From Octopus vulgaris (lineage: Eukaryota), in the NCBI GenBank assembly GCA_951406725.2, contig OX597816.1, positions 171,554,001-171,618,000 on the forward strand: a DNA stretch of 64,000 nucleotides, in the 5' to 3' direction. Positions within the stretch are counted from its first letter, which is position 1; every line of letters begins with the position of its first letter. Position numbers and translations under genes: made by a program. The notes beneath the pieces were generated by a model, which was not told the DNA's origin, ran no database searches, and worked only from the letters and a program-made list of their open reading frames with translations. This document shows positions 9,649-64,000 of this stretch, piece by piece.

Positions 9649-10176
9649 AATTAGAAATATTAAATTTCTAAATGTCTCAGAGAGACATCAGCTGTGGTGG
9701 AGCGATAGAGTGGTTGTATACTGTCAACATAACGTGACAATCCTGTAAGGGAATTACACCACCGCTGTTTAGCCCTAGGAAGCATTGACGTTTCCTGTTG
9801 GCTTTGACACATTTCTTGTGTCCTTATATTTGCGAAGGGGAGGCAAGCACCCCCACCAGCTAGGATTCACACCTGAGGACATGCATGTTTCTGGGTCTTA
9901 CCCGTCGTCAGCCCAGGATAGTGGGATCTGCTGATTGAGATGCCTGTCTAGCCTTCGCAAATATATATATATATTTACAGTGAAATCTATTCACTGGTCA
10001 CCGTAATTAGAAATATTTCATTTCTAAATGTCTCAAAGAGACATGAGCGGCGGTGGAGCGATAGAGTGGTTGTATAAAGTCAACATAACGTGACAGTCCT
10101 GTAGAGGGAATTACATCACCGCTAAGACCGTTAAGACCCAGAAACATGTCATGTTATGTTGACAGTATACAACCAC
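9649..10176 (-). mobile_element. Penelope-like non-autonomous element (direct repeat plus inverted fragments) containing a hammerhead
   Basis: 9649-9766 repeated at 10005-10123; inverted pieces at 10130-10176; flanking repeat actatttttaatt (9640-9652, 10177-10189). Confidence 0.7.
9872..9917 (-). ncRNA. Minimal type I hammerhead ribozyme
   Basis: minus strand CCUGGG-CUGACGA-c GGGU aag ACCC a-GAAAC AUGCAU GUC-CUCAGG; stem I 6 bp, palindromic stem III, GUC cleavage triplet. Confidence 0.75.
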
Positions 10177-10260
10177 ACTATTTTTAATTTGCCTGCCAAG
10201 TATTCTTTCTTCGTTGAATCTCCATAGATTTAATCTTGTCATTTTCTTTATTGTTCACAG

Positions 10261-10460
10261 TATGACTATTATGATCCGGATTCACTAAATGGATTCAAAC
10301 ATTCGTTACTGACTATGCTGCGTATGATGAAAACTCAAGCATCTGGATCTCCTTCTGGCAACCATGGCCTATTTCATCGCTACCATATCGAAGCTGTCAC
10401 TCTTCAAGGTGTCTCACGAGCATTTGGGCAGAAAACATCAGATTTAATGGTAACTGGTCG
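10261..10460 (+). CDS. GPAA1: GPAA1 exon: YDYYDPDSLNGFKHSLLTMLRMMKTQASGSPSGNHGLFHRYHIEAVTLQG...TGR
   Basis: ttcacag acceptor, gtaagt donor at 10461, Gaa1 motif QASGxPxGxHGLFxRYxIEAVTL; phase 0 to 2. Confidence 0.95.
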
Positions 10461-15207: not shown

Positions 15208-15480
15208 GCCATTTCTTTGTGGATTGGTTCTGAAAAGCCAAAAGACAAAAATGAAAAGAAGCCACAAAAAAGTGATTTAAATTCTTCCAAGCTAGAAAAA
15301 GATGAAAAAGAACCTGAAACAGAGAAACAAGAGAAAGAAGTAGAGAAAGAAGACAATGAAGTGAGTCAGTCGAAGAAAGAGATTTCTTGTGAGAAGAAAG
15401 AAGAAGATCCACTGGAAAAATTGTCTAAAGATGTAAATGATATTGAAGATGATGACAGTTTGAAAAACGACCCAGATGAG
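15208..15480 (+). CDS. GPAA1: GPAA1 exon: AISLWIG followed by an E/K/D-rich low-complexity loop
   Basis: open frame of 91 codons, GAG|gtaagt donor at 15481, phase 0 both sides; K|AxxLW continuity with the previous exon. Confidence 0.85.
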
Positions 15481-15684
15481 GTAAGTAGCAGGAACCATTT
15501 TGGGTAATAACTGTAATAGCTGGTTTAGCACAGTGACTTGATATCAGAGATCAAATCCACTCTACATCGGTTGGAGTGGAAGCAAAAGACTTCCGTTGCA
15601 AGTCTTTTTGCATTATTGGTGCGGTTGTGTGGTAAGAAGCTTGCTTCCCAACCATATGTGTGTGTCTTGCCTGGAATCGAACTC

Positions 15685-15790: not shown

Positions 15791-15963
15791 GCAATATCGA
15801 AAAATAACTTACGAATGAGAACCCAGGTTCGAAATTTCCTCAAGACGCCTGATGAAGGCTGGAGGGTATATCAGCCGAAACGTGTTAACAAACGAGATGA
15901 GGACATATATCCGTCAAGTGTAAATAATGTAAATAATATCTCATCTCCTAAATAGAGAACTGT
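15685..15963 (+). mobile_element. tRNA-headed short element with (AAT)n and a hammerhead-like tail
   Basis: head TGGCGTAGTGG...GTTCGATTCC; CTGATGA aGGCTG-loop-CAGCC GAAAC at 15849-15881; inverted copy of part of the head at 15668-15687. Confidence 0.6.
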
Positions 15964-62088: not shown

Positions 62089-62871
62089 CAAGAATAGATT
62101 TAATATTTCAGTAAAGTATCCCAGGTTTGATTGGAACAATCATATATGAAGACTAAGAGCGCGTAAGTTGCTGCGATTGGAAATCGTTTTCTATTTAATA
62201 TGCAATGGATTTGTAATTTCAATTCTGCATCATATATTGTACAACTAATTATTACTAGCAAGAAAGAAAATTCTATATTTTCTAATTTTAGCACAAATTA
62301 TATTCCATATTTCTCTGTCTCTTGTCAAAACATTGCATTCGCTTCAAACATCGCCTTTGTATTTGTTTTGCACAAACTTGTCCGAAAGAAAGGCCTCAGG
62401 AGCTGACCTCTTCTATCATTATTGAAGAACTGATGGAAGTAGACGTATATCATACTATATAATATATTGGTTAGCATGCTGTTAATTGTGGGAAACAGAT
62501 ATCATTCTCAGTTTGAGCAATGTGAATGTCTAGGCAACAATACTTAACACCAACCATTGAAAATTTTAAAGTTCAGCGTGACACGCTGAAACGATCAGTT
62601 TACCAGCTGCAAACGAGTGGTCTTTGTTCGCAATGCAGCCTCGGAAAGATTATTCTGCTCTCATGTGATTTTTCAGGGTCGTTCATCACCTTACTCCCCA
62701 CCACTACAGACACACTTATTATCTGCAAAGCAGGGCTTTTAATCTCGTATTTGTGCTTGTTATTACAGTGATTTTGATAGTAAAATAACAAAGAAGTCCG
62801 CTTTAAGTAGATATTAACCACTCGTTTAAAGTCTGAAGAAATTTCAAAGTTGTTTTATTTATTTATATATA

Positions 62872-63268
62872 CTAGCAGTATCGCCCGGCGTTGCTCGGGT
62901 TTGTAAGGGAAATAACTATATAAGCATTTTTAGAGATGTAAAGTATAATAGCCATCTCAATATGGCTAACCACAAAGGGGGGGGGTGTTACTGTAGCTTT
63001 TTACGTTCTGAGATCTAATAATAAATTTTTAGAGAGTTATTTCCCTTATATATGCCAAAAATGGATTAAAAATGGGAAAAATTGATGGTAAATTTTTTTT
63101 AAATCGTAGACTCATCGTAGACGCGCGCTAATACCCAGAAGGGCTCGATATGAATCACGACTATAAGATACCCGGTTTTGGTTAAACTGCACCGCAAAAT
63201 GTGGGAGTAGTTAGGAATCTAAATTGTAGGAGACAGACAGCACACAACCTTACTTTTATATATAAAGA
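62872..63268 (-). mobile_element. Non-autonomous Helitron
   Basis: same family termini. Confidence 0.88.
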
Positions 63269-63758
63269 TATTTGATTATTTTTTTTTAAATTTCAGCTTA
63301 TTGGGTACATCACTATTTTCTTTTATGACATCGGCATTATAGCATGTTAACAAAAACAGAGTAATGTGACATACATACTAATTTCAATTTTGGTTCATCC
63401 AAAGGAAATGCTTAGAAAGTAATTCTAAATAATCTTGATGCGTTGATTCTGCAGCGATTGAGCAGATATGTTATGAAAGGCGTCCCAACTCTGGCCATCC
63501 CGTTCTTCTCAGAGGCATTGTGTACCAAGGACTACGTTATCCAATCTGTTCCTCCTCTTCTGACAAATCTAATAAACTAAATTTTAAAAAAAATGTATTA
63601 GCAATATTACCGATAGGTAACATTTATCCCCACTGAAACGTGGATGTTCTGTTAAAAAAAAAACTATACTGTGGTAGATACCAGGAGAGAAACCATCATA
63701 TTCACTTTTTAGTGCAAAATGCACTCTTGCTTAAATCGCTAGCGGGGAGATAAAATCC

Positions 63759-63853
63759 TCGCTACCTCCAGCGCCGAGACCACCAGATCGCCTGATTTCA
63801 ACCTTGTTTAGTCTCGTCAGTGATGGATGCGCGATCGCTAGAGGCGATAGCGA
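63759..63853 (-). ncRNA. Type I hammerhead ribozyme with extended stem I
   Basis: minus strand UCGCUA ucg CCUCUAGCG aucgcgcau CCAUCA-CUGACGA-GACU aaacaa GGUU-GAAA UC aggc GA UC-UGGUGG ucucgg CGCUGGAGG UAGCGA; AUC cleavage between 63786 and 63785. Confidence 0.78.
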
Positions 63854-64000
63854 TTCATTAAAAAATACAGTCGAGCGTATTCTGAGCTAGATTTTACTGC
63901 TATTTATAACAGGACAGGCGATCACGTATTGCAGATGTAGGGTCGGACACGTTGCCTGCATTCAAACTTAAAACTATTTGCAGTGAAGTTTTCATAAACC

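What the first reader, a model, noticed from the sequence alone, without database searches (positions are those of the whole stretch)
63759..63853. Complete extended type I hammerhead ribozyme in a CpG-rich patch with no recognisable transposon ORF
Seen in sequence (minus strand): the core CUGACGA (63820-63814) and GAAA (63799-63796); stem II GACU/GGUU; stem III AUC/GAU closed by an AGGC loop; an AUC cleavage triplet. Stem I has three helices (CCAUCA/UGGUGG, CCUCUAGCG/CGCUGGAGG, UCGCUA/UAGCGA) with an internal loop placed to dock on loop II. Known: this loop-loop architecture marks hammerheads that cleave efficiently at low Mg2+, as in retrozymes and some domesticated ribozymes. Inference: CpGs are retained in an otherwise CpG-poor window, so this is a young retrozyme-like element or a conserved functional ribozyme, possibly an undescribed cephalopod family.
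Basis: partly seen in the sequence, partly recalled or inferred. Interest (0 to 1): 0.8.

Follow-up and report, generated by a model that had tools for sequence, protein, structure and literature searches.

The report
Fossil hammerhead retrozyme with Penelope footprint
The hammerhead ribozyme motif is really there, but it is one old, shortened copy of a 354-base repeat found at more than a hundred places in this genome, whose mirror-image insertions suggest it was likely copied by a Penelope-type retrotransposon; this is a known kind of element, and this copy is predicted to cut itself poorly.

Summary
The Rfam type I hammerhead match is weak (21.4 bits, cut-off 34). The motif is part of a 275-bp, 5'-truncated solo copy (63584-63858, minus strand) of a non-coding 354-bp repeat seen at about 110 loci. 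The family is old (median 85% to consensus), and this copy is no younger than average. It has lost G10.1-C11.1, the palindromic stem III loop and two stem I pairs, so 'young' and 'efficient' are not supported. The family carries the Penelope-like element (PLE) footprint: all 30 adjacent inverted pairs meet 5'-to-5', 3' ends cluster at two sites 37 nt apart, and in 18 of 18 scorable pairs one arm ends at each site. Ends avoid the ribozyme cut site. Most copies have a U3-A8 core (48 of 80) and few have C3-G8 (5 of 80), so standard descriptors miss them. Verdict: new, extinct family of animal non-LTR retrozymes, likely moved by a PLE. The scan already noted retrozymes with this footprint on other DNA of this and other genomes. 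Cleavage, circular RNA and the helper element are untested.

The parts
63584..63858 (-). 5'-truncated solo copy of a 354-bp hammerhead repeat (consensus positions 86-368), about 85% identical to consensus
63759..63853 (-). type I hammerhead motif with extended stem I
63814..63820 (-). core CUGACGA with C3-G8; the family majority is U3-A8
63800..63813 (-). stem II and loop AAACAA; consensus GACC/GGUC has decayed to GACU/GGUU, so G10.1-C11.1 is now G.U (predicted -0.2 vs -4.0 kcal/mol)
63787..63796 (-). 3-bp stem III; the consensus 10-nt palindrome is broken by two changes (predicted dimer helix -2.5 vs -12.9 kcal/mol)
63785..63786 (-). predicted cleavage site after the AUC triplet (untested)
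63779..63779 (-). U1.7, expected partner of the last A of loop II (role recalled from hammerhead structures, not from a call)
63584..63613 (-). tail between the family's two 3'-end sites (A about 326, B about 363), with a 12-nt deletion; this copy ends at site B
63854..63854 (-). tentative transcription start (consensus 90); the promoter-like region upstream of it is missing from this copy
   Evidence: weak, one LINE insertion and a short motif match
63858..63866 (.). candidate AT-rich target-site duplication with 63584-63592; weak, the motif occurs 47 times in the window

Best explanation
This is a decayed, 5'-truncated solo copy of an old 354-bp hammerhead repeat family, likely a non-LTR retrozyme that was likely inserted by a Penelope-like element's enzyme, and this copy is predicted to be unexpressed and to cleave poorly. 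Inferred cycle of the active ancestors: read-through transcription of tandem units; hammerhead cleavage, helped by dimer pairing through the palindromic stem III; ligation to a rod-like circle. A PLE reverse transcriptase/GIY-YIG protein would then nick both strands of AT-rich DNA and start cDNA inside the RNA at two sites 37 nt apart, one per strand. That gives 5'-truncated monomers to 2.7-mers, often as a 5'-to-5' inverted pair with the tail on one arm only. Shown: family, period, age, end clustering, arm geometry, core states, decay of this copy. Inferred: transcription, cleavage, circle, identity of the helper.
For: Period 354. 28 of 125 segments are longer than one unit and continue into the next unit. 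The consensus circle folds at -144.3 kcal/mol against -91.0 +/- 6.1 for 100 shuffles. Inverted neighbours meet 5'-to-5' in 19 of 19 and 11 of 11 in a separately selected set. 3' ends fall at site A (45 of 123, median 326) and site B (43 of 123, median 363). One arm at A and one at B in 12 of 12 and 6 of 6 scorable pairs. Ends at the cut site are rare: 2 of 123 3' ends and 4 of 123 5' ends. These match PLE insertion features in PMC8557442 (passages) and the two internal start sites of an anole PLE in PMC11167929 (passages). Unit size, low GC and lack of ORF match PMC7229834 (sections 13, 14, 17).
Against: No autonomous PLE sharing the tail was found (only the best 40 of 1148 candidates were scored). 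Covariation among copies is not convincing: a few CpG-linked pairs reach uncorrected p 0.004-0.04 among about 60. Target-site duplications are only slightly enriched (mean shared word 5.5 vs 5.0 shuffled; 5 of 54 at 8 nt or more vs 2.0 expected). No long tandem array was seen (3 of 125 segments exceed two units). The A and B windows were drawn from the same data that they describe. 12 of the 30 inverted pairs could not be scored directly because one or both arms end elsewhere.
Confidence: 0.8

Rival explanations
1. The unit is the pseudo-LTR stump of an autonomous PLE, and the copies are 5'-truncated PLE insertions rather than a separate non-coding element.
For: Same insertion footprint; PLE pseudo-LTRs carry hammerheads, including a U3-A8 variant (PMC4209133 passages); many Xenopus retrozymes are homologous to pseudo-LTRs (bioRxiv 10.64898/2026.07.22.740005).
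Against: Long copies run into the next monomer, not into an ORF. Among 123 5' flanks, the 16 pairs that share sequence up to the junction join at different consensus positions, and several lie between two pieces of one copy, as later insertions would. No GIY-YIG domain in 46 of 118 ORFs scanned; the one RT hit (L006, RT plus PHD) lies 3' of an arm. The motif is the canonical type with a long stem I, not the minimal PLE type.
Confidence: 0.1
2. This particular copy has been domesticated as a working ribozyme in a host transcript.
For: It has a canonical C3-G8 core, which only 5 of 80 pattern hits have, U1.7 and the AUC triplet; all three stems can still pair (19 of 51 ungapped units can); 10 of 13 CpGs are kept (p 0.046 uncorrected).
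Confidence: 0.04
3. The family spread mainly as PLE-dependent cargo with a ribozyme already drifting, so cleavage and circles were not needed.
For: All four states of core positions 3 and 8 are common (U3-A8 48, C3-A8 12, U3-G8 11, C3-G8 5, other 4 of 80) and are not significantly linked in that set (p 0.33). Insertion ends ignore the cut site. Hammerhead cleavage was not needed for PLE insertion in vitro (PMC11167929 passage).
Against: The consensus keeps all other core bases, G10.1-C11.1, the palindrome and U1.7, and the majority state is a Watson-Crick pair reported as active (PMC3088659 passage). This rival changes the role of the ribozyme, not the class of element, and can hold together with the best explanation.
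Confidence: 0.2
4. Copies were made by an ordinary LINE or by DNA-level satellite spreading.
For: 5' truncation and AT-rich ends also occur with LINEs; one LINE 3' fragment sits in a copy (L017).
Against: Two fixed internal 3'-end sites and the strict A/B arm rule are not expected from either (own knowledge); no common poly(A) or simple-repeat tail.
Confidence: 0.05

Closest known systems
Animal non-LTR retrozymes (Cervera and de la Pena 2020, PMC7229834; mussel units 350-390 bp)
   Same: Type I hammerhead in a non-coding unit of about 350 bp, GC under 50%, tandem and solo copies, strongly self-paired predicted circle.
   Different: Old and apparently extinct family; mostly dispersed 0.5-2.7-mers; majority U3-A8 core; no RNA shown. 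The sections read propose PLE mobilisation but do not describe insertion-end geometry.
Vertebrate retrozymes as non-autonomous PLE derivatives (Li, Clavereau and Pollet 2026, bioRxiv 10.64898/2026.07.22.740005)
   Same: Same proposed helper; solo monomers read as offspring copies; 8 of 9 tested elements did not cleave.
   Different: Their evidence is co-occurrence and pseudo-LTR homology; the main text has no match for octop, cephalopod or mollus. Here the evidence is the insertion footprint. Their supplements were not seen.
Insertions of endonuclease-bearing PLEs (PMC8557442) and the anole Poseidon element PAc (PMC11167929)
   Same: 5' truncation, partial tandems, inverted 5'-truncated arm, 30-40 bp tail on one end, two internal start sites, AT-rich targets.
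   Different: No ORF here; canonical long-stem hammerhead rather than the minimal type.
U3-A8 hammerhead variants (PMC3088659; Schistosoma Cercyon PLE motifs, PMC4209133)
   Same: The 3-8 core pair is switched to U-A.
   Different: There it is a minority or occurs in minimal PLE motifs; here it is the majority state of a canonical retrozyme family. The window copy itself is C3-G8.

Membership tests
Type I hammerhead (Rfam RF00163) | Core CUGANGA, GAAA, NUH with three stems | tested here: met
Type I hammerhead (Rfam RF00163) | Score at or above the gathering cut-off (34 bits) | tested here: not met
   21.4 bits
Type I hammerhead (Rfam RF00163) | G10.1-C11.1 pair | tested here: not met
   G.U in this copy; G-C in consensus and in 61 of 88 units
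Type I hammerhead (Rfam RF00163) | Site-specific self-cleavage | not testable with these tools
   needs an in vitro assay
Non-LTR retrozyme | Non-coding repeat unit of about 170-400 bp with one type I hammerhead, GC under 50% | tested here: met
   354-bp period; no ORF of 120 aa or more overlaps the copy
Non-LTR retrozyme | Head-to-tail tandem units | tested here: met
   family level: 28 of 125 segments exceed one unit, longest 959 nt; the window copy is a solo partial unit
Non-LTR retrozyme | Strongly self-paired predicted circle | tested here: met
   consensus z -8.8
Non-LTR retrozyme | Expression as linear and circular RNA | tested here: inconclusive
   only assembled contigs of runs guessed to be RNA were available
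Non-LTR retrozyme | Target-site duplication longer than 4 bp when present | tested here: inconclusive
   slight enrichment only; weak candidate at this locus
PLE-type insertion | Inverted 5'-truncated arm adjoining the 5' end | tested here: met
   family level: 30 of 30 adjacent inverted pairs; absent at this locus
PLE-type insertion | 30-40 bp tail on one arm only | tested here: met
   sites 37 nt apart; 18 of 18 scorable pairs are A/B
Autonomous PLE (pseudo-LTR of) | Joined to an RT plus GIY-YIG ORF | tested here: not met
   limited to 110 loci of about 3 kb and 46 of 118 ORFs
Domesticated solo hammerhead | Unique locus conserved across species | tested here: not met
   multi-copy and average divergence; cross-species conservation of this locus was not tested

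The most novel reading that the evidence does not exclude
An octopus-type retrozyme family amplified mainly with a switched U3-A8 catalytic core, and its insertions record a strict rule in which the Penelope enzyme primes the two DNA strands at two different fixed sites of the retrozyme RNA, 37 nt apart, on a circular or multimeric template that ignores the ribozyme cut. This would be genomic evidence for two-site, two-strand PLE priming on a parasite RNA, and a sign that CUGANGA-based censuses miss whole retrozyme families.
Probability: 0.55. Interest if true: 0.45.

Novelty: new member of a known kind. Interest (0 to 1): 0.25.

Why it matters
The copy itself is ordinary fossil repeat DNA. 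The family is useful in two ways. First, PLE mobilisation of animal retrozymes is proposed in print from co-occurrence and homology; the A/B arm rule gives exact predicted priming sites that can be tested with a purified PLE protein. Second, a majority U3-A8 core means that standard hammerhead descriptors would see fewer than one in ten of these copies (5 of 80 have C3-G8).

Tried and rejected
Rfam at gathering score: nothing in the window. RF00163 over the genome returned 6 matches from 73 scored of 263,217 candidates, none of them at this family's listed places, so it is no census. Covariation among copies: not convincing. Subfamily sites (loop II AAGGAA vs AAACAA with linked positions) exist but do not explain the core state: U3-A8 is the majority in both, 31 of 51 and 19 of 26. 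CpG decay as the source of A8 in the copies: rejected, since A8 is in 67 of 89 units and T7 in 11, whereas consensus CpGs decay evenly (376 vs 372 of 1322). RNA editing: rejected as a general cause, since A>G and T>C rates are equal (5.1% each). Promoter test: no significant BLAST match between the unit and U2 or U6 upstream regions; only a short GCTAA motif at -64 vs -65 in one U2 type, and one LINE insertion at about consensus 90; inconclusive. Expression: contigs of three runs guessed to be RNA and one metatranscriptome were laid on 62230-65370. The ribozyme bins had next to no depth, the 3' part had low depth (16-88) that may come from other copies, and a neighbouring unrelated repeat had depth of thousands to hundreds of thousands; contigs cannot show absence. 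Variation of this locus among other individuals and species labels remains unexamined. Search for the helper through the tail found only family members. Literature searches for retrozyme plus octopus or cephalopod found no description of such a family; the library lacks most subscription papers, and bioRxiv supplements were not seen.

Full report
Observation. Statistical support for the motif alone is modest. Rfam gives no hit at the gathering score, and RF00163 scores 21.4 bits against a cut-off of 34. A loose descriptor matches 8 times against 9.8 by chance. The stretch folds with z -1.63 and not into the ribozyme shape. CpG density is high: observed/expected 1.39 against 0.58 for the window.

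It is a repeat copy. The genome is 2.8 Gb in 227 contigs. I take it to be octopus-like from its size and from earlier scan notes; no call names it. DNA searches gave 653, 1370 and 1148 first-look candidates for three parts of the element, 40 scored each time; these are not copy numbers. An exact 33-place pattern had 80 matches and its control 0. I analysed 85 of 90 loci from the first three searches (5 duplicates or overlaps dropped, and a sixth dropped from then on) and 25 of 30 from the tail search. The unit has a 354-bp period. Among 125 segments the median identity to consensus is 84.6% (72.7-94.4); 28 exceed one unit and 3 exceed two. The best pair of copies from different loci is 87% identical, median 78% of 3517 pairs, so no young subfamily was seen. 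The consensus circle folds at -144.3 kcal/mol against -91.0 +/- 6.1 for 100 shuffles. The window copy covers consensus 86-368 at 63858-63584, has no second unit or inverted arm within 1.5 kb, and has a 12-nt deletion near its 3' end.

State of this copy's ribozyme. The consensus has stem II GACC/GGUC, a 6-nt loop II ending in AA, a 10-nt palindrome as stem III, an AUC triplet, a 6-bp stem I, U1.7 and a 3x1 bulge. That fits the canonical metazoan type I design with dimer-assisted helix III described in PMC4209133 (passages). The window copy has two C-to-U changes in stem II, including C11.1, two changes that break the palindrome, and two mismatches in the helix next to the bulge. Predicted energies for copy and consensus: stem II -0.2 vs -4.0, dimer helix III -2.5 vs -12.9, cost to reach the ribozyme fold 6.6 vs 2.7 kcal/mol. 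Its non-CpG divergence is 10.4% against a median of 9.8%. Of 89 units, 38 keep the core, 21 (this one included) keep the core and pairable stems, and 3 also keep G10.1-C11.1 and the palindrome. In loci not chosen on the ribozyme, core A/T sites have changed at 8 of 147 against 169 of 2451 elsewhere, so there is no sign of selection after insertion. Against my reading: this copy keeps 10 of 13 CpGs (p 0.046 uncorrected; 12 of 87 units do as well) and a canonical C3-G8 pair, and weak cleavage is not excluded.

Core variant. In the 80 pattern hits, where positions 3, 7 and 8 were free, I counted by hand U3-A8 48, C3-A8 12, U3-G8 11, C3-G8 5 and other 4. The 21 units from 3'-selected loci gave 12 U3-A8 and 4 C3-G8, and the tail set 10 and 2 of 21. 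A8 is a master state, not decay in the copies: A8 67 and T7 11 of 89, whereas consensus CpGs decay evenly. U3-A8 is a known natural variant reported as active (PMC3088659 passage; PMC4209133 passage). Linkage of positions 3 and 8 is weak: p 0.012 in the set biased by the query and p 0.33 in the unbiased set. Whether the switch was selected or the ribozyme was drifting is unresolved.

Insertion footprint. 5' ends are scattered. 3' ends cluster at site A (45 of 123, median 326) and site B (43 of 123, median 363), 37 nt apart. In loci selected on the ribozyme, 50 of 79 ends fall in windows covering 12% of the unit; the windows were chosen after seeing the data. Only 2 of 123 3' ends and 4 of 123 5' ends lie near the cut site. 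Adjacent inverted segments meet 5'-to-5' in 19 of 19 cases and in 11 of 11 in the tail-selected set. Where both arms end directly at A or B, one ends at each in 12 of 12 and 6 of 6 pairs; the other 12 pairs have an arm ending elsewhere. PMC8557442 (passages) lists 5' truncation, partial tandems, an inverted 5'-truncated arm and a 30-40 bp tail often at one end as PLE features. PMC11167929 (passages) shows a PLE protein cutting and extending both strands at AT-rich DNA and starting at two internal RNA sites that bound the tail, without needing ribozyme cleavage. I infer that a PLE enzyme made these copies. Target-site duplications are only slightly enriched.

Rivals. A pseudo-LTR stump is unlikely: long copies run into the next unit, no common upstream sequence joins at one position, and 46 of 118 ORFs scanned (those of 130 aa or more) gave no GIY-YIG domain. 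The helper itself was not found. Domestication is unlikely for the reasons above, though cross-species conservation of this locus was not tested. Transcription start: one copy (L017) is split by a LINE 3' fragment that is 86% identical over 118 nt to one upstream of a U2 gene (L102). Its junction is near consensus 90, where the unit reads like the first six bases of U2, and a GCTAA motif lies at -64 against -65 in one U2 type. This agrees with earlier scan notes but rests on one insertion, and BLAST found no significant promoter match. If right, the window copy lacks its promoter.

Comparison and novelty. The family fits animal non-LTR retrozymes (PMC7229834: abstract and sections 13, 14, 17), for which PLE mobilisation is proposed there and in bioRxiv 10.64898/2026.07.22.740005 (parts 1-3 of 5 and a term search; supplements not seen). 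Seven searches found no description of an octopus retrozyme family, within the limits of the library. Earlier scan notes report retrozymes with Penelope footprints in this and other genomes; none was returned for this family's sequence or place. Verdict: new member of a known kind; the copy is a fossil; interest 0.25.

Noticed in passing
window 9665-10130, minus strand: A second, unrelated hammerhead repeat family: about 1.3 units of about 352 bp, core at 9911-9905, palindromic stem III, 1975 first-look candidates, best copies 89-95% identical, some with inverted neighbours. Younger than the family in this report.
   Followed up: partly
window 15849-15887, plus strand: Minimal PLE-type hammerhead motif with a long stem II, in a short element that follows an (AAT)n tract.
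   Followed up: no
window 62862-63270, with copies at about 56704, 60540 and 60927: Abundant repeat ending, on the minus strand, in a hairpin plus CTAG, like a non-autonomous Helitron (label recalled). Very high contig depth in runs guessed to be RNA.
   Followed up: no
L017:1165-1493 and L102:1080-1500: Related LINE 3' fragments sit at about consensus position 90 of this old retrozyme family and directly before a U2 gene, which extends the target pattern noted by earlier agents to this family.
   Followed up: partly
L012, L015, L024, L150, L156, L157, L163-L165, L168: Some units have C at core position 4 or A at position 5, as if a minor master carried a CpG there.
   Followed up: no
L001:2000-3141 (beyond the window end): GC- and CpG-rich stretch (GC 50-58%) with an internal repeat of about 100 bp; unidentified.
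   Followed up: no
window about 10260-10455 and 15300-15481, plus strand: Exon-like stretches ending in GTAAGT donors; the one ORF scanned there had no Pfam hit, and it is unknown whether the gene spans the ribozyme.
   Followed up: partly
L092, L093, L096: Hammerheads with a stem II extended by about 60 nt score above the RF00163 cut-off.
   Followed up: no
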